From contig CAZCYO010000001.1 in assembly GCA_964503265.1 (NCBI GenBank), forward strand, positions 290,064 to 354,063: a DNA stretch of 64,000 bases. Reading direction: 5' to 3'. Positions 20,890 to 63,843 of this stretch are shown here, piece after piece (position 1 is the stretch's first letter; the number at the start of each line of letters is the position of its first letter). The notes under the pieces are model-generated. The model was not told the origin of the DNA. It did not search any database and worked only from the letters and a program-made list of their open reading frames with translations. Origin of the DNA: an uncultured Gammaproteobacteria bacterium. Lineage in GTDB: Bacteria; Patescibacteriota; Microgenomatia; Levybacterales; UBA12049. The position numbers were made by a program, and so were the translations under genes.

Positions 20890-20963
20890 TGACCCCAATG
20901 GGATTCGAACCCATGATTTCCGGGATGAAAGCCCGGCGTCCAAGGCCGCTAGACGATGGGGCC
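20890..20963 (-). tRNA. tRNA-Glu (anticodon UUC)
   Basis: Reverse complement GGCCCCATCGTCTAGCGGCCTTGGACGCCGGGCTTTCATCCCGGAAATCATGGGTTCGAATCCCATTGGGGTCA. Cloverleaf folds with anticodon loop CTTTCAT and a GGTTCGAATCC T-arm. Confidence 0.85.
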
Positions 20964-21903: not shown

Positions 21904-21975
21904 GGGCCGGTAGCTCAGTGGTAGAGCAGGAGCCTTTTAAGCTCTTGGTCGCGGGTTCGACCCCCGCCCGGCTCA
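21904..21975 (+). tRNA. tRNA-Lys (anticodon UUU)
   Basis: GGGCCGGTAGCTCAGTGGTAGAGCAGGAGCCTTTTAAGCTCTTGGTCGCGGGTTCGACCCCCGCCCGGCTCA. Anticodon loop CTTTTAA with a canonical D and T arm. Confidence 0.85.
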
Positions 21976-51773: not shown

Positions 51774-51845
51774 TGAGCCAGGGGGGACTCGAACCTCCAA
51801 CCGATTCCTTAAGAGGGAATTGCTCTACCATTGAGCTACTGGCCC
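51774..51845 (-). tRNA. tRNA-Lys (anticodon CUU)
   Basis: Reverse complement GGGCCAGTAGCTCAATGGTAGAGCAATTCCCTCTTAAGGAATCGGTTGGAGGTTCGAGTCCCCCCTGGCTCA. Anticodon loop CTCTTAA. One A.C mismatch in the T stem. Confidence 0.8.
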
Positions 51846-52690: not shown

Positions 52691-52764
52691 TGCATCCGTA
52701 GCTCAGTGGATTAGAGCATCTCGCTTCGGACGAGAGGGTCGGGGGTTCGAGTCCCTCCGGGTGC
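52691..52764 (+). tRNA. tRNA-Arg (anticodon UCG)
   Basis: GCATCCGTAGCTCAGTGGATTAGAGCATCTCGCTTCGGACGAGAGGGTCGGGGGTTCGAGTCCCTCCGGGTGCA. Anticodon loop CTTCGGA. Confidence 0.85.
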
Positions 52765-52818
52765 ACATCGTTAATTTACCCTCTTTCTTTATCCTTCATT
52801 TTTTTCTACTATAGATGT

Positions 52819-55928: not shown

Positions 55929-56901
55929 GAATTACGTAAACAATCCAACAATGAATCAATCAAACAATAAAACAGTAAAAAAATCACTTTTCTCATTTAT
56001 TAAATTTTTTGTCGGTTGGCCGCTTTCTTTGACTGCATTATATTTTATCGGAGCAAAGACAATTACTCAGCTACAGGACCATCCAATTGCTTTTTCTGAG
56101 CTTTCATATAGTTCGCTTTTTCTATCAACTATCTTTTTTCTTCTGTATTTTTTCTCTAGGGGATATATTTGGCAAAAAGAATTATCGTTTTTTGGTTACA
56201 GTCTTACTACCTATGAATCGATTTATCATTGGGCAGCATCTGAGTTAAAGAGATATATTCCAGGAAATATTTGGTCCTTTTTAGGTCGTGGCATTCGATT
56301 TGGAGAAATGGGAGTTACAAAAAAACATATCGTGACTGCGCTCATTCTAGAAGCACAGTTGATCGTACTTGGAGCATTAGTAATTTCACTTCCTGCAATT
56401 ATTTTACTAGTAACACCATACGTGCCGTTTATTCAGCCACAATTACTTATGATTATCATTATTTTCATGACATGTATTATATTGACGCTATTTTTTTATC
56501 AAAACATATTTTATAAATATGTAACATTGTCATTCGTTCCTATGATATTTTCTCCATTATCAGCACAAAAACATATGTCTCTATTATTTTTAAGCAGTCT
56601 TTCATATTTATTCTTTGGACTTGGATTTTATTTTTCAATCGTTTCTTTTATTCATATCCCATCCAACTTCTTTATGATTACCATCAGTGGACTCGTACTC
56701 GCATATTTAGTAGGGTATCTATCACTTATTACACCAAGTGGTCTTGGTGTAAGAGAAGTTGTTGCCGGAATAATTCTGACAACGATTGCCAGTACATCTG
56801 TAGTAAATTTCGCTGTACTTTTCTCTCGTATTTTTTTAACGTTAGTCGAACTTATCTTCGTAGCAATTGCTTTTATGTTTTATAAAAATCATCAAAAATG
56901 A
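55885..56901 (+). CDS. Polytopic membrane protein, LPG_synthase_TM/UPF0104 flippase-like family
   Basis: IPGNIWSFLGRGIRFGEMG and the C-terminal ITPSGLGVREVV motif. The true start is probably an internal Met. Confidence 0.45.
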   Translation: MHLDYRQLRHYVMIKNYVNNPTMNQSNNKTVKKSLFSFIKFFVGWPLSLTALYFIGAKTITQLQDHPIAFSELSYSSLFLSTIFFLLYFFSRGYIWQKELSFFGYSLTTYESIYHWAASELKRYIPGNIWSFLGRGIRFGEMGVTKKHIVTALILEAQLIVLGALVISLPAIILLVTPYVPFIQPQLLMIIIIFMTCIILTLFFYQNIFYKYVTLSFVPMIFSPLSAQKHMSLLFLSSLSYLFFGLGFYFSIVSFIHIPSNFFMITISGLVLAYLVGYLSLITPSGLGVREVVAGIILTTIASTSVVNFAVLFSRIFLTLVELIFVAIAFMFYKNHQK

Positions 56902-58319
56902 AAATCCTTCGCACGTATTGGCGTGAAACCATTTTAGGAGTGAGCATGTTACTGTTTAGTATCTATTTCACAATTGTGAGTTTTCTTAGGTATACAAATT
57001 TCTACGCTGGTAAATTTGACTTAGGAAATATGAGCCAAACCGTCTGGAATACACTTCATGGCAATATATTCGTTCTTACTGATCCAAACGGTACACAGAC
57101 TGTTTCACGGCTTGCGACACATGCAGATTTCATTCTGATTTTACTTGCTCCATTTTATATTTTGTGGGCAGACCCTCGCATGTTACTTCTTATTCAAGTA
57201 GTTATTACTGCACTCGGAGCAATATTTATTTATTTGATAGGAAATGAGGTTATAAAGAATAAAAATCTTTCACTCATTTTTGCACTTTTATATCTCTTAA
57301 ATCCAAGTGTTCAGCGGACAATTATTTACGATTTTCATGCTGTAGTCTTAGCGACTACTCTTATTTTAGGTTCATTTTATTTTCTTATTAAAAAGAAATA
57401 TGTGTGGTTTATTGTTTTTAGCATTCTGGCGGCAATTACAAAGGAACAAGTTTGGTTAATAATTTCTTTCTTTGGTATGTATTTATTCTTCGTGGATAAA
57501 AAAAGAATGTTTGGAAGTGTCGTATTTTTAATTAGTATCAGTATTTTCTATATTCTTTTTACCTATGCAATTCCTCACGCTGCAAAATCACAACACTTTG
57601 CATTATCATATTATTCTGATTATGGTGTAAGTCCGACAGAGATAGCAAAAAATATCCTTAAAGCTCCGATCAAATCATTTCTGACTGTTATAGAACCAGA
57701 TAGACAAACGTTTCTGTGGCAACTATTTTCTCCGTTGGTATTACTTTCTTTTGCAGCACCACAATTTCTTTTGTTTATGTTACCCGAATTATTTCTTTAT
57801 TTACTAAGCAGCAACAATAATCTTCATCAAATATATTATCAATACACAGCGACACTAACACCATTTATTTTTATTGCTGCAATATATGGGTTTGCTAAAC
57901 TTCGACAAAAAAGCATATTTTTTAGAGAAGTAAAATCTCTCATGGGAATGTTTTTACTCGCAGTATTTTTTGCGTATTTTTATAGTCCACTACCATTTTC
58001 AGGTGAGCCAAACACTGCAATGTTTACGAAAGTTCAAGAAAACAAAAAAGAAATTAATGATTACCTCGCCTCAGTCCCATCTCATTACAGCGTTGCTGCA
58101 AGTAACAGCTTAGGTTCTCATCTGACAAACCGAAAGGATATTTATACAATTCCAAATGGTCTTGATAAAGCAGATTTAGTACTTTTTCTCCTGAATGATA
58201 CAACTGCATACCCATCTCCTCAAGCACATAAAGATCTCGAACAACGTCTTGAAAAAAGTGGTAAATTTACACTCGATTATCAAATAGGAGACTTTGTGGT
58301 ACTTAAAAGAATAAAATAA
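56898..58319 (+). CDS. Polytopic membrane protein, DUF2079-like (GT-C-like candidate)
   Basis: FDLGNMSQTVWNTLHG in the first loop, about 11 TM helices, then a soluble C-terminal domain. Confidence 0.35.
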   Translation: MKILRTYWRETILGVSMLLFSIYFTIVSFLRYTNFYAGKFDLGNMSQTVWNTLHGNIFVLTDPNGTQTVSRLATHADFILILLAPFYILWADPRMLLLIQVVITALGAIFIYLIGNEVIKNKNLSLIFALLYLLNPSVQRTIIYDFHAVVLATTLILGSFYFLIKKKYVWFIVFSILAAITKEQVWLIISFFGMYLFFVDKKRMFGSVVFLISISIFYILFTYAIPHAAKSQHFALSYYSDYGVSPTEIAKNILKAPIKSFLTVIEPDRQTFLWQLFSPLVLLSFAAPQFLLFMLPELFLYLLSSNNNLHQIYYQYTATLTPFIFIAAIYGFAKLRQKSIFFREVKSLMGMFLLAVFFAYFYSPLPFSGEPNTAMFTKVQENKKEINDYLASVPSHYSVAASNSLGSHLTNRKDIYTIPNGLDKADLVLFLLNDTTAYPSPQAHKDLEQRLEKSGKFTLDYQIGDFVVLKRIK

Positions 58320-58363: not shown

Positions 58364-58456
58364 TGTCATTCTCAGCTGGACTGAGAATCTCTTTGATATT
58401 TTCTTATAAATAAAATAGGTATTTCTTTTAGATTCTCATTTTCATAAGAATGACAA
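58364..58456 (+). repeat. ORF-less inverted pair of hairpin repeats (MITE-like)
   Basis: TGTCATTCTCAGCTGGACTGAGAATCTC at 58364-58391 and inverted CTTTTGTCATTCTTATGAAAATGAGAATC at 58431-58456, flanking 39 bp. Confidence 0.55.
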
Positions 58457-58535
58457 AAGTAAGATAAGTAGTATTATCCAACAACGAAACATTATAGCAA
58501 TCGAACAATGTACCATCTATACTAACTATACTGCC

Positions 58536-59345
58536 ATGATTACTGTCATAAAAGCCAACGGTGAAAGAGAACCATTTAGTGAAGAAAAAGTACTTCGTTC
58601 CATTGAGCGAGCTGGCATTCCTGAAGATTTACGCAATACAGTTTTGGCACATGTCAAAGAAAAATTAGTTGAAAATATTACAACCACAGAAATTTATCGA
58701 CATATTCTTGATTGTTTTGATGAAACAAATAATTTATACAGTAAAGCAAAGTATAGTCTTAAGCAAGCACTTATGTTACTCGGGCCTACTGGATATCCAT
58801 TTGAAGACTATGTTGCACGAATTCTTGAAGCATTAGGATATAAAACTGAAGTTCGACAACTGCTTATGGGAGGATGTGTGGGACATGAAGTCGACGTCAT
58901 ATCTGAAAAAAATCATAAACGTTCAATGATTGAGGCAAAATTTCATAATAATCCAGGTGTTAGATCAGATGTTCAAGTTGCACTTTATACAAAGGCTCGT
59001 TTTGAAGATCTAAAACTCAAGCATCACCTCGATGAAGCGTGGATAGTCACAAATACTAAAGCTACAACAGATGCTATAGCCTATGCGAACTGCGTAGGAA
59101 TGAAGGTAGTTAGTTGGAGTTATCCTGAGAACCAAGGATTACGAGAGCTTATCGAAGAGACCAAAATGCACCCAGTAACTGTACTCACGTCACTTTCTCT
59201 CGCACAAAAAAGAACTCTCCTTAAAAACCATATCGTAACCTGTTTAGAAATCAAACAAAAACCATCTCTTCTTCATGTGCTTTTCTTAGGTGATAAAGAA
59301 CGAAAAGAAGTCATGGAGGAAGTACGATTTATTTGTGAAACATAA
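58536..59345 (+). CDS. ATP-cone domain fused to Mrr-like restriction-endonuclease-fold (PD-(D/E)xK) domain
   Basis: N-terminal VIKANGEREPFSEEKVLRSIERAG (ATP-cone). C-terminal FEDYVARILEALGY...GHEVDVISEK...IEAKF (D...E-x-K). Confidence 0.5.
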   Translation: MITVIKANGEREPFSEEKVLRSIERAGIPEDLRNTVLAHVKEKLVENITTTEIYRHILDCFDETNNLYSKAKYSLKQALMLLGPTGYPFEDYVARILEALGYKTEVRQLLMGGCVGHEVDVISEKNHKRSMIEAKFHNNPGVRSDVQVALYTKARFEDLKLKHHLDEAWIVTNTKATTDAIAYANCVGMKVVSWSYPENQGLRELIEETKMHPVTVLTSLSLAQKRTLLKNHIVTCLEIKQKPSLLHVLFLGDKERKEVMEEVRFICET

Positions 59346-59385: not shown

Positions 59386-60672
59386 CTATAGTCCAAATCT
59401 AACCAATTTTTCTCTCTCATAGGCATCGGGGCCAAAGCCGTTTGGGACTGTAGTTAATTTATCTGAATCAAGTAGAAATCCATTTCTGATTGTATGATCA
59501 CCAAATCGGTCATTAATTGTATCTATTACATGTGCGATTTTATTTTTGCGAAGTACATCACTAAATAAATCGAGAGGAATTGAGGAAGAAGGGGAGAGAA
59601 AGCTTACATAAACTCCGATTCTTCGTACATACCGAATTTCTTCTGGTAGCGTACGAAATCCCGACGAAGGATCTGAAAGCAAACGATAAACGATGTCATA
59701 CATTTCTTGTCCCGTATCAAAGTATGAGCTAAAGGTTTTATGAACAGATATATACGATCCACCACCTAGTGATATTCCCATATGCCGTGCTTTCATCTTA
59801 ATTCGACGAAGCTTAATTCCTAACTCTTCACACAGTTCATACACATTCTGAAGGATAGTACGCTCATCATATTCATTTTCTGGAAGACAGTATTGCCTCC
59901 CAATAGATTTAGCGGGTTCTGTTTCTGTATACGGATTTACTTCTGAAAAATCAATTCCTTGACCTACATTCCAGAGAAAAGTTCCTTCAACTACTCCAAA
60001 TTCAGCCATGAGAGAAGACTTAGTAGTAAGAGAAAGTTTGGGCAACGTATATATACCCATTCTATGTAAACGTCTGCAAATTCGAGATCCAATGCCACAA
60101 ATTTCAGTTAGTTCAGTATGTGCATATATTTCCGAAAGATTGTGAGGTGTAATAGTGACAATACCATTGGGCTTTTTAAGACCTGAACCCAATTTAGCCA
60201 GTAATTTATTATGAGAAACACCAACTGATACAGTAATATACGGTCCAATTTCATTTTCGATTCGTTTTTTCAATTTCGAAATTAGTCCATAAACACCACC
60301 AAACAAATGTTCGGTTTTAGTAATATCCATGAACAATTCGTCAATCGAGAACACTTCGACAGAGGGAGAAAAATCTTTGCAGATATTTATAAATTTTTTA
60401 CTAACTTCCCAATACCTCACAAAATTAGCAGGTGTTAGAAGAAGATCGGGACAAAGCGTTTCGGCTTTATAGACATTCATTGCCGTTTTAACACCAAAAC
60501 GCTTTGCCTCACGACTAGCTGCGATTATGCACGTTCTTCCATTTGTTGCAGTTACTCCAAGCGGTTTACCCCTAAACACTGGATTATACTGTTGTTCAAC
60601 GCTTGCAAAGAATGAATCAAAATCGATATGAAGAATCTTCCTGCCTGAGGACTGTTCACTCATATCATGCAT
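59386..60672 (-). CDS. dinB: Y-family DNA polymerase (DinB/Pol IV-like)
   Basis: ILHIDFDSFFASVEQQYNPVFRGKPLGVTA...IIAASREAKRFGVKTAM matches the canonical Y-family N-terminus. Confidence 0.85.
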   Translation of the reverse strand: MHDMSEQSSGRKILHIDFDSFFASVEQQYNPVFRGKPLGVTATNGRTCIIAASREAKRFGVKTAMNVYKAETLCPDLLLTPANFVRYWEVSKKFINICKDFSPSVEVFSIDELFMDITKTEHLFGGVYGLISKLKKRIENEIGPYITVSVGVSHNKLLAKLGSGLKKPNGIVTITPHNLSEIYAHTELTEICGIGSRICRRLHRMGIYTLPKLSLTTKSSLMAEFGVVEGTFLWNVGQGIDFSEVNPYTETEPAKSIGRQYCLPENEYDERTILQNVYELCEELGIKLRRIKMKARHMGISLGGGSYISVHKTFSSYFDTGQEMYDIVYRLLSDPSSGFRTLPEEIRYVRRIGVYVSFLSPSSSIPLDLFSDVLRKNKIAHVIDTINDRFGDHTIRNGFLLDSDKLTTVPNGFGPDAYEREKLVRFGL

Positions 60673-60744: not shown

Positions 60745-60975
60745 TTAGTTTTTTTTGTAGGCTGAGTAGGGGTTACACGAAAGAACACGGATGAATGAAA
60801 GTCGCACCGCTTTAAAAAAAGGGTATGTATTGAAACAATGAATTGCATATTCAGAACAAGAGACTTTATAAATACACTGCGCCCCTAAAGCCGCAAAAAA
60901 AGGAGATAAAATCACCTGATACCCCCGAATAAAAATAATTGCAATCTTCTTCATAAAATCACGTGTCATTCTCAT
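60745..60975 (-). CDS. yidD: Membrane protein insertion efficiency factor YidD
   Basis: IRGYQVILSPFF...CIYKVSCSEYAIHCF...RVLSCNP matches the YidD signature. The first four codons are supplied by a hairpin repeat, so the real start may be the MKK at codon 8. Confidence 0.8.
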   Translation of the reverse strand: MRMTRDFMKKIAIIFIRGYQVILSPFFAALGAQCIYKVSCSEYAIHCFNTYPFFKAVRLSFIRVLSCNPYSAYKKN

Positions 60976-61043
60976 GAAAATGAGAATCTACTAGATACTT
61001 CTCTAGTCATCCTGGAGCGAACGAAGTGAGTGATAGGATCTCA
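60964..61043 (+). repeat. Two tandem hairpin-repeat copies
   Basis: TGTCATTCTCATGAAAATGAGAATCTAC at 60964-60989 and GTCATCCTGGAGCGAACGAAGTGAGTGATAGGATCTCAC at 61006-61043. Confidence 0.55.
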
Positions 61044-63027: not shown

Positions 63028-63124
63028 TGTCATTCCCTTGAAAAAGGGAATCTATTAAATATACCTTTTTAACTAGATATAAAGGGAAATTTAACAGATT
63101 CTCAGTCAAGCTGAGAATGACAGC
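63028..63124 (+). repeat. ORF-less inverted pair of hairpin repeats (MITE-like)
   Basis: TGTCATTCCCTTGAAAAAGGGAATCT at 63028-63053 and inverted TGTCATTCTCAGCTTGACTGAGAATC at 63098-63124, flanking 44 bp. Confidence 0.55.
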
Positions 63125-63132
63125 AGGAAATT

Positions 63133-63843
63133 ATGAAACAAGTACATACTATTCAACTCCAAATTCTTAAAAAACTACTATTCTCTACAGGGCTTCGATA
63201 TAGTCAAATAAAACCATCTTCTGAAATGGAAAATAATCAGTTCGATTTTCATTTAGATAAACTTATCGTTCAGGGCCATATCGAAAAGAAATTGCACCTC
63301 TACCACTTAACGCTTACAGGAAAAGATTTTGCAAATCGAATTGACGCTGATAACACGATGATCCAAAAACAAGCAAAAATTGGCACGTATTTCGCGTGTA
63401 TACGTAAAAAAGAAGGACAAATACAATTTCTTATCTATACACGACTTAAACAACCGTTTTACGGCTGTCAGGGTTTTCCATCAGGAAAAGTTCAGTATGG
63501 TGAAAAAATTACAGAAACTGCGAAGAGAGAACTGAAAGAAGAAACGAACTTAGATGGAGAACCTGAAGTCGTTCTTATTAAACATTTTCTCGTCCATGAT
63601 AAAAAAACTCGTCAACTGATCGAAGATAAATTTATGTTTCTTTGTATCATTTCAGAACCTACAGGAGAACTCATTCCCTGCGATGAAGGTACATATGAAT
63701 GGGTGAATGAAAGCGATCTATTACACTATGTAACAAATCATTTTGAAAATGTGGAAGAGTTCATAAAGGAAGTTATGTATATAAAAAATTTTAACGGAAC
63801 TATCTCTTTTACCGAAATTCACCAAGAAAGTGAAAAATTCTAA
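63133..63843 (+). CDS. Nudix hydrolase with N-terminal winged-helix-like domain
   Basis: Nudix box GFPSGKVQYGEKITETAKRELKEETNL. Confidence 0.6.
   Translation: MKQVHTIQLQILKKLLFSTGLRYSQIKPSSEMENNQFDFHLDKLIVQGHIEKKLHLYHLTLTGKDFANRIDADNTMIQKQAKIGTYFACIRKKEGQIQFLIYTRLKQPFYGCQGFPSGKVQYGEKITETAKRELKEETNLDGEPEVVLIKHFLVHDKKTRQLIEDKFMFLCIISEPTGELIPCDEGTYEWVNESDLLHYVTNHFENVEEFIKEVMYIKNFNGTISFTEIHQESEKF

What the first reader, a model, noticed from the sequence alone, without database searches (positions are those of the whole stretch)
58536..59345. ATP-cone domain fused to an Mrr-like restriction-endonuclease-fold nuclease
The N-terminal 90 aa match the ATP-cone, the nucleotide-sensing domain of NrdR and ribonucleotide reductases (VIKANGEREPFSEEKVLRSIERAG). 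The C-terminal half carries a PD-(D/E)xK core of the Mrr_cat type (EVDVISEK...IEAKF). A nucleotide-pool-sensing switch on a DNase is the logic used by several recently described anti-phage effectors. The gene lies in a repeat-rich region next to a Y-family polymerase. It is a plausible stand-alone defence or stress nuclease that has not been characterised.
Basis: partly seen in the sequence, partly recalled or inferred. Interest (0 to 1): 0.6.

Follow-up and report, generated by a model that had tools for sequence, protein, structure and literature searches.

The report
ATP-sensing nuclease, conserved core gene
The gene really does fuse an ATP/dATP-sensing domain to a DNA-cutting enzyme core, but it belongs to a large, slowly evolving, uncharacterised family that looks like a nucleotide-gated housekeeping or starvation nuclease, not an anti-phage weapon.

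Summary
PDB 1Y88 (AF1548) matches the nuclease and C-terminal part. E90, E118, D120, E133 and K135 are 100% invariant across the bacterial and archaeal relatives sampled. The four residues that bind nucleotide in NrdR's ATP-cone are retained.

The defence reading is not supported. There was no PADLOC hit and no relative in the phage or viral collections searched. In about 80 related Patescibacteria genomes the gene sits in fixed core synteny: DUF2079 directly upstream in 81%, and a convergent dinB within 3 kb in 62%. It is as conserved as DinB. No nrd linkage was seen.

In the Bacteroidota/Chlamydiia sister branch the gene heads an operon with a beta-CASP nuclease (56% of loci), an AMP-phosphorylase-like enzyme and a PRPP synthetase, often behind universal stress protein genes. 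That three-gene partner module is microoxia-induced in Bradyrhizobium.

Best reading: an adenine-nucleotide-gated endonuclease that couples nucleic-acid cleavage to energy or nucleotide status. The family is catalogued in databases, but I found no experimental study of it.

The parts
58536..59345 (+). Complete ORF (269 aa plus stop): ATP-cone, PD-(D/E)xK nuclease and AF1548-like C-terminal domain
   Evidence: ORF list. An identical protein, P0001, lies on a 360,915-bp NCBI contig. Full-length homologues are 262-335 aa.
58536..58781 (+). ATP-cone domain (about residues 1-82): beta-hairpin plus four helices. Candidate nucleotide-binding residues are V4, K6, E12 and K18.
   Evidence: PF03477 at 32.1 bits, above gathering 25.8. 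The model has strands 3-5 and 11-13 and helices 16-25, 30-42, 50-63 and 67-80. Foldseek matches RNR R1 and NrdR cones. K6 and K18 are 97-100% conserved and E12 80-93% across the family. These residues map onto S. coelicolor NrdR V48, K50, E56 and K62, whose mutation impairs nucleotide binding (using the alignment).
58755..58808 (+). Strongly conserved linker (residues 74-91, S-L-K...L-G-P-T-G-Y-P-F-E-D) joining the last cone helix to the first nuclease helix. It ends at the invariant E90.
   Evidence: G83, G86, F89 and E90 are 100% and P84 99% conserved in both the bacterial and the archaeal sets. Its role in coupling the two domains is inferred.
58791..59123 (+). PD-(D/E)xK endonuclease core, Mrr_cat type (about residues 86-196)
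   Evidence: PF04471 at 30.8 bits, above gathering 21. phmmer against AF1548 (1Y88) gives E=1.1e-33 over residues 92-264. Foldseek matches 1Y88, Can2/Card1, MspJI, EndoMS and XisH nuclease folds.
58887..58895 (+). E118-V-D120, the first catalytic motif (HEVDV)
   Evidence: E118 and D120 are 100% invariant in 149 cluster representatives and 119 archaeal relatives. D120 corresponds to the D38 predicted catalytic in AF1548 (PMC1821046).
58932..58940 (+). E133-A-K135, the ExK catalytic motif (IEAKFHN)
   Evidence: E133 and K135 are 100% invariant. They correspond to E51 and K53 of AF1548.
59133..59342 (+). C-terminal helical domain (residues 200-269), AF1548-like_C type
   Evidence: It aligns with residues 124-193 of AF1548. 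PF22357 is detected in close relatives P0046, P0085 and P0107 and in most archaeal members. The window sequence itself does not reach the PF22357 model. P213 is invariant, and W194 and P197 are 99-100% conserved.
58364..58455 (.). Two copies of the palindrome TGTCATTCTCA-N6-7-TGAGAATC (58364-58390 and 58431-58455) in the 216-bp gap upstream of the gene. The second overlaps the -35 hexamer of a promoter-like site at 58450-58477.
   Evidence: Further copies lie at 60964-60988 and 63098-63122. The motif is absent from the closest long-contig relative, L174, so a regulatory role is unproven.
56898..58319 (+). Context: DUF2079 membrane protein gene, the conserved upstream neighbour on the same strand
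   Evidence: PF09852 at 225 bits. It lies within 250 bp upstream in 64 of 79 related loci.
59386..60672 (-). Context: Y-family DNA polymerase (DinB-like), the convergent downstream neighbour
   Evidence: IMS, IMS_C and IMS_HHH_1 domains. It is convergent within 120 bp in 24 of 74 related loci and within 3 kb in another 22. It is absent from the archaeal and Bacteroidota/Chlamydiia contexts examined.

Best explanation
The gene encodes a single-chain, three-domain enzyme of the AF1548 family. An N-terminal ATP-cone (adenine-nucleotide sensor) is joined by an invariant linker to a PD-(D/E)xK endonuclease core (E90, E118/D120, E133-x-K135) and a small helical C-terminal domain. It is a chromosomal, slowly evolving core gene, not a mobile defence gene.

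Proposed mechanism. ATP, dATP or ADP bound to the cone sets the oligomeric state or conformation of the nuclease and so switches cleavage on or off, by analogy with NrdR and class I ribonucleotide reductases. Nucleic-acid cleavage is thereby tied to the cell's energy or nucleotide status. In the sister branch (Bacteroidota, Chlamydiia and others) the gene is the first in an operon with a beta-CASP nuclease, an archaeal-type AMP-phosphorylase-like enzyme and a PRPP synthetase, behind universal stress protein and glycolytic genes. This suggests it performs the endonucleolytic first cut of a nucleic-acid turnover and nucleotide-recycling pathway used under energy or oxygen limitation.

Shown: the domains, the fold, the invariant catalytic and ligand-site residues, the synteny, the operon association, and the absence from phage collections and known defence models. 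Inferred: nucleotide binding, the direction of the switch, the substrate (DNA or RNA), and the transfer of the operon-based role to the Patescibacteria protein, whose partner genes are not adjacent.
For: Domains and fold. Catalytic residues E90, E118, D120, E133 and K135 are 100% invariant, and cone residues K6, G9 and K18 are 97-100% conserved, in 149 cluster representatives plus 119 archaeal members. V4, K6, E12 and K18 correspond to NrdR residues whose mutation impairs nucleotide binding and changes oligomeric state (PMC9110341; alignment). Family size: 424 clusters at 50% identity with E<=1e-30, nearly all keeping the full architecture; more than 6,500 hits on the Bacteroidota/Chlamydiia side. 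Core-gene behaviour: DUF2079 directly upstream in 64/79 loci; median identity 56% against 55% for DinB, 48% for DUF2079 and 36% for LPG-synthase-TM. Operon in other phyla: identical four-gene operons on the Criblamydia and Pontibacter plasmids; a beta-CASP gene within 600 bp downstream in 33/59 metagenome loci; TP-family in 13/37 and Prs in 12/37; Usp within 3 kb upstream in 30/62; a beta-CASP gene overlapping the family member's stop in a Chlamydiia MAG. Partner identities: Beta-Casp plus RMMBL domains; NF003338 and TIGR02645 archaeal-type phosphorylase above cutoff, just under the AMP phosphorylase cutoff (506.5 against 535 bits); Prs subfamily NF005537. The MBL-Prs-TP trio (bll3115-3117) belongs to the core microoxia-induced proteome of Bradyrhizobium diazoefficiens (PMC6515984). 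Nucleotide catabolism through AMP phosphorylase is documented in CPR and DPANN (PMC5113843 and PMC6389311, listed).
Against: There is no biochemical data for any family member. The only solved structure, AF1548, lacks the ATP-cone, and no function has been reported for it. In the window and in all 87 CPR and DPANN loci, none of the beta-CASP, TP-family, Prs, Usp or AAA_28 partners lies near the gene. The operon inference therefore comes from a sister clade at about 40% identity. The CPR-branch neighbours (a DUF2079 membrane protein and DinB) say nothing about nucleotide recycling. The Pfam ATP-cone match covers only profile positions 1-59 of 88. The direction of regulation and the substrate are unknown. 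Conserved synteny within one order-level clade may reflect shared ancestry only.
Confidence: 0.55

Rival explanations
1. A stand-alone anti-phage (abortive-infection or restriction-like) nuclease. The ATP-cone senses the nucleotide-pool disturbance caused by infection and releases a DNase.
For: The logic is plausible and the catalytic residues are intact. Ligand-sensor-plus-PD-(D/E)xK defence effectors (Can2, Card1) are among the structural matches. Two family members lie on plasmids, and the Criblamydia plasmid has an AbiE toxin-antitoxin pair about 8 kb away. The beta-CASP partner scores 405 bits against the type VII Cas14 model, well below the 800-bit cutoff.
Against: There is no PADLOC family (best E=0.005 over 25 residues). 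No relative was found in 50,697 phage records or in IMG/VR. The position is fixed in core synteny in about 80 genomes, and sequence conservation equals DinB's. The variable gap next to the gene holds small membrane proteins, not defence genes. Archaeal and Bacteroidota contexts are metabolic, stress and ion-transport genes. The Cas14 similarity reflects a shared beta-CASP fold, and the same protein also scores 299 bits against aCPSF1.
Confidence: 0.1
2. A DNA-repair or structure-specific nuclease that works with the neighbouring Y-family polymerase, for example by processing stalled forks or lesions. The ATP-cone would restrict its activity to particular dNTP or ATP states.
For: dinB is convergent and often abutting in 46 of 74 related CPR loci, with overlapping 3' ends in some, such as L002. 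In the window the same palindrome lies upstream of the nuclease gene and of the yidD-dinB unit. The fold resembles EndoMS/NucS, and sources name the family 'Holliday junction resolvase-like'.
Against: The dinB link is confined to one clade. It is absent from the three archaeal places and from the plasmid, genome and metagenome loci of the other branch. In 28 of 74 CPR loci dinB is missing or elsewhere. Convergent genes are not co-transcribed. The palindrome is not conserved in a relative with 81% protein identity.
Confidence: 0.15
3. A catalytically silent, NrdR-like transcription regulator that uses the nuclease fold only to bind DNA and the ATP-cone to sense dATP and ATP.
For: The cone is most similar to NrdR's (TIGR00244 partial match at E=5.5e-4; NrdR chains). 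Pfam lists inactive restriction-endonuclease folds, with a weak NA-iREase1 hit at E=0.17.
Against: All catalytic residues are 100% invariant across bacteria and archaea, which is not expected for a non-enzymatic fold. There is no Zn-ribbon: TIGR00244 scores 20 bits against a cutoff of 124.65, matching model positions 48-94 only. No nrd genes appear in any neighbourhood examined.
Confidence: 0.05

Closest known systems
AF1548 of Archaeoglobus fulgidus (PDB 1Y88, structural-genomics 'protein of unknown function'; Pfam Mrr_cat plus AF1548-like_C)
   Same: The nuclease core and C-terminal helical domain are homologous (phmmer E=1.1e-33 over residues 92-264; Foldseek E=1.9e-15, 35% identity). It has the same D...ExK triad, predicted catalytic in PMC1821046.
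   Different: AF1548 has no ATP-cone: the chain is 199 aa and the match starts at its residue 23. No function has been reported for it.
NrdR (ATP-cone transcriptional repressor of ribonucleotide reductase genes)
   Same: The ATP-cone is of the same type, and the four residues shown by mutagenesis to bind nucleotide are retained. Its nucleotide-dependent oligomerisation is the likely working model.
   Different: NrdR's output domain is a Zn-ribbon DNA binder, not a nuclease. The window protein fails the NrdR model (20 bits against 124.65) and is not linked to nrd genes.
Class I/III ribonucleotide reductase N-terminal ATP-cone
   Same: The sensor fold is the same (Foldseek matches to E. coli and Aquifex R1 and S. 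thermophilus NrdD), and the principle of allosteric on/off control by ATP against dATP is the same.
   Different: The regulated enzyme is a nuclease, not a reductase.
Can2 / Card1 (CARF-domain, cyclic-oligoadenylate-activated PD-(D/E)xK nucleases of type III CRISPR)
   Same: The architecture is the same: an adenine-derived small-molecule sensor fused to a restriction-endonuclease-fold nuclease. These are among the best structural matches (E about 3e-4 to 6e-3).
   Different: The sensor is a CARF domain, not an ATP-cone; the ligand is cA4; the context is CRISPR defence. Sequence identity is only 13-17%.
Mrr-type (type IV) restriction endonucleases
   Same: The catalytic domain falls in the same Pfam family, Mrr_cat.
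   Different: It lacks the N-terminal winged-helix reader of modified DNA and is not in a defence or mobile context. The Pfam family is broad, so the match says only 'PD-(D/E)xK nuclease of this subgroup'.

Membership tests
AF1548-like nucleases (Mrr_cat + AF1548-like_C; PDB 1Y88) | Significant sequence similarity to AF1548 across both the nuclease core and the C-terminal domain | tested here: met
   phmmer E=1.1e-33, query residues 92-264 against chain residues 23-193
AF1548-like nucleases (Mrr_cat + AF1548-like_C; PDB 1Y88) | Same three-dimensional fold | tested here: met
   Foldseek E=1.9e-15, TM 0.77 normalised to 1Y88, on a model with pLDDT 87.8
AF1548-like nucleases (Mrr_cat + AF1548-like_C; PDB 1Y88) | Direct match of the window sequence to the PF22357 AF1548-like_C model | tested here: inconclusive
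   The window protein has no PF22357 hit at E<=1, nor do its residues 200-269 alone at E<=0.01. Close relatives and archaeal members do hit it (P0259 at 44.9 bits against 23.9), and the AF1548 alignment spans this region.
PD-(D/E)xK nucleases, active | Conserved acidic and lysine catalytic residues (E...D...ExK) | tested here: met
   E90, E118, D120, E133 and K135 are 100% conserved in 149 representatives plus 119 archaeal members
PD-(D/E)xK nucleases, active | Metal-dependent phosphodiester cleavage | not testable with these tools
   This needs a biochemical assay
ATP-cone domain (PF03477) | Profile match above the curated threshold | tested here: met
   32.1 bits against gathering 25.8, though only profile positions 1-59 of 88 are aligned
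ATP-cone domain (PF03477) | Beta-hairpin plus four-helix fold | tested here: met
   Secondary structure of the model; Foldseek matches to RNR R1 and NrdR cones, for example 9gex_D at rmsd 2.6 over 82 columns
ATP-cone domain (PF03477) | Nucleotide-contacting residues retained (NrdR V48, K50, E56, K62) | tested here: met
   V4, K6, E12 and K18 are present in the window protein. K6 and K18 are 97-100% and E12 80-93% conserved family-wide.
ATP-cone domain (PF03477) | Binding of ATP or dATP | not testable with these tools
   This needs ITC, MST or a structure with ligand
Mrr-type type IV restriction enzyme | N-terminal winged-helix domain (Mrr_N) that reads modified DNA | tested here: not met
   The N-terminus is an ATP-cone, and no other N-terminal Pfam family appears at E<=1
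Mrr-type type IV restriction enzyme | Patchy, mobile or defence-island distribution | tested here: not met
   Fixed synteny in 82 loci and housekeeping contexts elsewhere
NrdR | N-terminal Zn-ribbon and a full-length match to TIGR00244 | tested here: not met
   20 bits against a cutoff of 124.65; only model positions 48-94 are matched
NrdR | Genomic linkage to nrd genes | tested here: not met
   No RNR or NrdR domain in any Pfam-annotated neighbourhood, in the two annotated plasmid regions, or among the 25 most frequent of the 63 families matched by otherwise unexplained neighbours
Known anti-phage defence systems (PADLOC-DB 2.0) | Match to a defence-protein model | tested here: not met
   The only hit is PDC-S02 at E=0.0054, 14 bits, over 25 residues
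Can2/Card1 CARF nucleases | CARF sensor domain | tested here: not met
   No CARF family in Pfam. The structural similarity is low overall (TM 0.29-0.36 normalised to the query, 13-17% identity).

The most novel reading that the evidence does not exclude
The family is the gatekeeper of a previously undescribed, widely distributed pathway that uses nucleic acid as a reserve. When adenylate energy charge or dATP falls, the ATP-cone releases the endonuclease. A beta-CASP exonuclease then reduces the fragments to mononucleotides. An AMP-phosphorylase-like enzyme and a Prs-family kinase pass the ribose moiety into central metabolism. In genome-reduced CPR bacteria and DPANN archaea, which depend on scavenged nucleotides, the stand-alone enzyme would be the regulated entry point for recycling their own or host-derived nucleic acids.
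Probability: 0.3. Interest if true: 0.7.

Novelty: new variant of a known kind. Interest (0 to 1): 0.5.

Why it matters
Experimental work on ATP-cones has centred on ribonucleotide reductases and their repressor NrdR. A nuclease under ATP-cone control would extend this allosteric switch to nucleic-acid degradation.

The family is large (hundreds of 50%-identity clusters, thousands of sequences). It spans Patescibacteria, DPANN archaea, Bacteroidota and Chlamydiota, and is unusually well conserved, yet I found no experimental study of it.

The operon found here (ATP-cone nuclease, beta-CASP nuclease, AMP-phosphorylase-like enzyme and Prs, next to universal stress proteins) gives a concrete hypothesis that can be tested in cultured Bacteroidota such as Pontibacter, Chitinophaga and Psychroserpens. 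It concerns how cells recycle nucleic acids under hypoxia or starvation, and it bears on how ultra-small symbionts manage nucleotides.

It also shows that a 'sensor plus nuclease' architecture is not in itself evidence of phage defence.

Tried and rejected
1. Four-cysteine metal or Fe-S site. C114, C186, C236 and C267 are invariant or nearly so among close relatives. Family-wide, only C114 and C186 hold (about 95%), and C236 and C267 drop to 0-60%. Rejected.

2. Defence island. The PADLOC scan, the phage and IMG/VR searches, the genes in the gap between the nuclease and dinB and a Pfam tally of otherwise unexplained neighbours all gave nothing defence-like.

3. nrd linkage. None was seen in any neighbourhood examined.

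4. Shared operator for the nuclease, yidD-dinB and the HTH-Nudix gene. The palindrome is statistically real in the window (0.00 expected). It is absent from the 81%-identical relative L174, where the nuclease gene follows DUF2079 after 15 bp as called (about 45 bp from the conserved in-frame ATG). It occurs only once in the 173 loci held at that point. A genome-specific inserted palindromic repeat is at least as likely, so this is left open.

5. Functional link to dinB. It is clade-restricted.

6. Literature. Searches for ATP-cone with restriction endonuclease, Mrr, REase or phage defence, and for 'ATP cone domain-containing protein', found no description of the fusion. AF1548 appears only in the GOS paper, as a predicted endonuclease.

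7. Foldseek against AFDB50 was unavailable, so taxonomic range rests on source names.

8. The Bradyrhizobium paper and its supplements do not mention an ATP-cone gene next to bll3115-3117.
Full report
**1. Observation**

Both quoted peptide strings are present.

Pfam places an ATP-cone at residues 2-53 (PF03477, E=1.7e-7, 32.1 bits, gathering 25.8). It places an Mrr_cat restriction-endonuclease domain at residues 86-186 (PF04471, E=3.5e-7, 30.8 bits, gathering 21). NCBIfam has no family above cutoff: only a partial match to the cone part of NrdR, 20 bits against 124.65. PADLOC has nothing meaningful.

An AlphaFold2 model built on 36 homologues is confident (pLDDT 87.8, pTM 0.80). Foldseek against the PDB returns three groups of matches:
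- AF1548 (1Y88, E=1.9e-15, TM 0.77 on the target).
- Other restriction-endonuclease-fold enzymes: Can2, Card1, MspJI, EndoMS, XisH.
- The ATP-cones of ribonucleotide reductase R1 and NrdR.

By sequence, AF1548 matches residues 92-264 at E=1.1e-33.

So the protein has three domains, not two. Residues 200-269 form a helical domain equivalent to Pfam's AF1548-like_C (PF22357). That model is detected in relatives, although the window sequence itself does not reach it.

The neighbour at 59386-60672 (-) is a Y-family polymerase. The 'repeat-rich region' remark is not borne out, apart from one palindrome described in section 5.

**2. The family**

The protein belongs to a large family with a fixed architecture.
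- A word-indexed search found 1,495 relatives. The best 120 are all full length, 55-88% identical, and where named come from Patescibacteria: Roizmanbacteria, Levybacteria and Saccharimonadales-labelled MAGs.
- An exhaustive HMMER search of 1.84 billion cluster representatives found 424 clusters at E<=1e-30. Nearly all of the top 150 cover the whole query at 262-335 aa.
- Seeding from distant members revealed a DPANN archaeal branch (Micrarchaeota, Aenigmatarchaeota, Diapherotrites, Altiarchaeales).
- It also revealed a very large Bacteroidota/Chlamydiia branch with more than 6,500 hits, including cultured Chitinophaga eiseniae and Psychroserpens ponticola.
- In a sampled tree the three branches are separate clades. 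Mean identity is 40% between the CPR and Bacteroidota/Chlamydiia branches and 36% between CPR and DPANN.

*Residue conservation.* Across 149 representatives and 119 archaeal members:
- E90, E118, D120, E133 and K135 are 100% invariant. So are G83, G86, F89, G112 and P213, and R155, D158 and N173 are invariant or within 1% of it.
- ATP-cone residues K6, G9 and K18 are 97-100% conserved, and E12 80-93%.

Using the HMMER alignment to E. coli NrdR, V4, K6, E12 and K18 correspond to S. coelicolor NrdR V48, K50, E56 and K62. Mutating those residues impairs nucleotide binding and changes the oligomeric state (PMC9110341). Both halves of the protein are therefore under strong purifying selection at exactly the positions needed for ligand sensing and for catalysis.

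**3. Genomic context of the window's branch**

A scan of one genome per GTDB species returned 185 relatives. The best 80 loci are mostly Levybacteria/Microgenomates MAGs. Several carry the placeholder title 'uncultured Gammaproteobacteria' but have the same CPR-type gene order.

tblastn with the window's neighbours gave these results over 82 loci:

| Feature | Result |
|---|---|
| DUF2079 membrane-protein gene within 250 bp upstream, same strand | 64/79 (75/79 within 2.5 kb) |
| Genes further upstream | LPG-synthase-TM, and often ABC-FtsX |
| dinB convergent, within 120 bp | 24/74 |
| dinB convergent, 120-3,000 bp away | 22/74 |
| dinB absent or elsewhere | 28/74 |
| Median identity to the window's proteins | nuclease 56%, DinB 55%, DUF2079 48%, polysaccharide deacetylase 45%, LPG-synthase-TM 36% |

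Where there is a gap between the nuclease gene and dinB, it holds small membrane proteins: 83-86-aa YeaQ/GlsB-like peptides in ten of the 22 loci, roughly 150-aa transmembrane proteins in another eight, and assorted other ORFs in the rest. None is a defence gene.

This is the signature of a single-copy core gene in an old syntenic block, not of a defence-island gene. No relative was found in 50,697 phage records or in IMG/VR.

**4. Context elsewhere**

*Archaea.* The three DPANN places examined are housekeeping neighbourhoods: dihydroorotate dehydrogenase, carbamoyl-phosphate synthase, PEP carboxykinase, tRNA synthetases and a nitroreductase. They share no partner with each other or with the bacterial loci, and contain no dinB and no nrd genes.

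*Plasmids of cultured bacteria.* The plasmid collection gave the most informative hit. Full-length members on plasmids of Criblamydia sequanensis and Pontibacter actiniarum head the same four-gene, same-strand operon: ATP-cone protein, MBL-fold hydrolase, thymidine-phosphorylase-family protein, then ribose-phosphate pyrophosphokinase. In Criblamydia the operon is flanked by a P-type ATPase, phosphoketolase, glycogen phosphorylase and acetate kinase.

*Metagenome loci.* I tested the generality of this operon on 80 metagenome loci of this branch. The tallies below count same-strand neighbours only.

| Neighbour | Loci with it / loci with enough flank |
|---|---|
| Beta-CASP MBL gene within 600 bp downstream | 33/59 (37/59 within 6 kb) |
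| TP-family gene downstream | 13/37 |
| Prs gene downstream | 12/37 |
| Universal stress protein gene within 3 kb upstream | 30/62 (sometimes four to six in a row) |
| PFK, GAPDH or 2-hydroxyacid dehydrogenase further upstream | 15/42 |

In a Chlamydiia MAG the beta-CASP gene overlaps the stop codon of the family member. In Chitinophaga an AAA_28 protein and the carbon-starvation protein CstA follow it. Neighbours not explained by these references are P-type ATPases, metal-binding proteins, NDH-2, alcohol dehydrogenases, PPDK, DeoC and response regulators.

*Partner identities*:
- The MBL protein carries Beta-Casp and RMMBL (RNA-specificity) domains. It is closest to aCPSF1 and type VII Cas14 models, but far below their cutoffs.
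- The phosphorylase passes the archaeal-type models NF003338 and TIGR02645. It falls just short of the AMP phosphorylase equivalog (506.5 against 535 bits).
- The kinase is a Prs subfamily member.

*Experimental support for the partner module.* In Bradyrhizobium diazoefficiens the adjacent genes bll3115 (MBL hydrolase), bll3116 (Prs) and bll3117 (TP family) belong to the core microoxia-induced proteome. Protein log2 fold changes are 2.1-4.4 and transcript fold changes 5-15 (PMC6515984). That paper does not mention an ATP-cone gene there.

None of these partners is found near the gene in the window or in the 87 CPR and DPANN loci.

**5. A side observation**

The 216-bp gap upstream of the gene holds two copies of the palindrome TGTCATTCTCA-N6-7-TGAGAATC, at 58364-58390 and 58431-58455. 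The second overlaps the -35 hexamer of a promoter-like site. A third copy, at 60964-60988, lies at the start of the yidD-like ORF that precedes dinB on the minus strand. A fourth, at 63098-63122, lies just upstream of a winged-helix-Nudix gene. Shuffled sequence gives 0.00 expected matches.

This could be the operator of a small local regulon. However, it is absent from the closest relative with a long contig (81% protein identity). That relative has the same gene order including the Nudix gene, and there the nuclease gene follows DUF2079 after 15 bp as called, or about 45 bp if the later in-frame ATG is the true start. An inserted palindromic repeat is at least as likely as an operator.

**6. 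Interpretation**

*Shown:*
- A three-domain protein with intact nuclease and nucleotide-sensor sites.
- A large, slowly evolving family spanning CPR bacteria, DPANN archaea, Bacteroidota and Chlamydiota.
- Core synteny in the window's clade.
- An operon with a beta-CASP nuclease, an AMP-phosphorylase-like enzyme and Prs, next to Usp genes, in the sister clade.
- Absence from phage collections and from known defence models.

*Inferred:*
- The cone binds adenine nucleotides and switches the nuclease by changing its oligomeric state or conformation, as in NrdR. There, the form with ATP in both sites is an inactive dodecamer, while the dATP/ATP and dATP/ADP forms are active tetramers (PMC9110341).
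- The invariant GPxGxxFE linker transmits the signal to E90.
- The physiological role is regulated nucleic-acid cleavage that feeds nucleotide recycling under energy or oxygen limitation.
- The same biochemistry applies in the Patescibacteria organism of the window.

Nucleotide catabolism through AMP phosphorylase and form II/III or III-like RuBisCO is documented for CPR and DPANN (PMC5113843 and PMC6389311, listed). That makes a regulated nuclease upstream of such salvage plausible, but it is not demonstrated here. The substrate (DNA or RNA) and the direction of the switch are unknown.

**7. Rivals**

- *Anti-phage effector (0.10).* The architecture fits, but every contextual and distributional test argues against it.
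- *Repair nuclease partnered with DinB (0.15).* It is supported only by clade-restricted convergent synteny and a non-conserved palindrome.
- *Nuclease-dead NrdR-like regulator (0.05).* It is contradicted by the invariant catalytic residues and the absence of nrd linkage.

**8. Novelty and verdict**

The domain combination is already catalogued. Sources name members 'ATP cone domain-containing protein', 'restriction endonuclease' or 'restriction endonuclease/ATP cone domain-containing protein/AF1548-like protein'. An ATP-cone-less archaeal relative was solved in 2004. No experimental or comparative-genomic description of the fusion was found.

I rate it a new variant of a known kind: ATP-cone allostery applied to a nuclease. 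Interest is moderate (0.5). It is real, widespread, uncharacterised and now tied to a testable operon hypothesis.

Noticed in passing
window 58364-58390, 58431-58455, 60964-60988, 63098-63122: Four copies of the palindrome TGTCATTCTCA-N6-7-TGAGAATC, all intergenic and all within 5 kb. They lie upstream of the nuclease gene (two copies, one overlapping a predicted -35), of the yidD-dinB unit and of a wHTH-Nudix gene. Shuffles give 0.00 expected matches. The motif is absent from the closest long-contig relative L174, so it may be a local operator or a small inserted palindromic repeat.
   Followed up: partly
window 63133-63843 (+): A 236-aa ORF with a winged-helix-like N-terminus (read from the sequence by eye) and a Nudix C-terminal part. 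The NUDIX Pfam hit is on the syntenic 236-aa gene in L174, not tested on the window ORF itself. It could be a ligand-sensing regulator. A copy of the palindrome lies about 10 nt upstream of its annotated start. The gene is retained at the same relative position in L174.
   Followed up: partly
window 60745-60975 (-): The start of the yidD-like ORF is ambiguous. The listed ATG at 60975 lies inside the palindrome. A second in-frame ATG at 60954 (MKKIAIIF...) looks like the more plausible start and would put the palindrome just upstream of the gene.
   Followed up: no
window protein residues C114 and C186 (58875-58877 and 59091-59093): These two cysteines are about 95% conserved across bacterial and archaeal members, and are also present in AF1548. 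C236 and C267 are conserved only among close relatives.
   Followed up: partly
L088 9001-13608 (Criblamydia plasmid NZ_LK031773.1) and L089 1972-6597 (Pontibacter plasmid NZ_CP021236.1): Identical four-gene operons in two phyla: ATP-cone nuclease, beta-CASP MBL hydrolase, archaeal-type thymidine/AMP-phosphorylase-like enzyme and Prs. In Criblamydia the operon lies between phosphoketolase and glgP on one side and acetate kinase on the other, resembling a self-contained catabolic module carried on plasmids.
   Followed up: yes
L149, L152, L154, L155, L157, L161, L171, L172 (metagenome loci), upstream of the family gene: Arrays of three to six tandem universal stress protein genes precede the nuclease and beta-CASP pair on the same strand.
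   Followed up: partly
L007, L008, L013, L014, L030, L032, L042, L053 (gap between the nuclease gene and dinB): An 83-86-aa YeaQ/GlsB-like small membrane protein gene recurs in this gap. In other loci a roughly 148-aa transmembrane protein occupies the same slot. This is the one variable spot in an otherwise fixed block.
   Followed up: partly
Record titles of L004-L006, L010, L014 and others; JGI names of P0408 and P0413: Many MAGs titled 'uncultured Gammaproteobacteria' carry the Levybacteria-type gene order and 55-61% identical proteins, so the titles look like placeholders. Two family members are named 'ribosomal protein L21E' by JGI, which is an evident misannotation.
   Followed up: no
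window 20890-20963, 21904-21975, 51774-51845, 52692-52765: Four tRNA genes are the only Rfam matches at gathering threshold in the 64-kb window. No rRNA or riboswitch was found.
   Followed up: no
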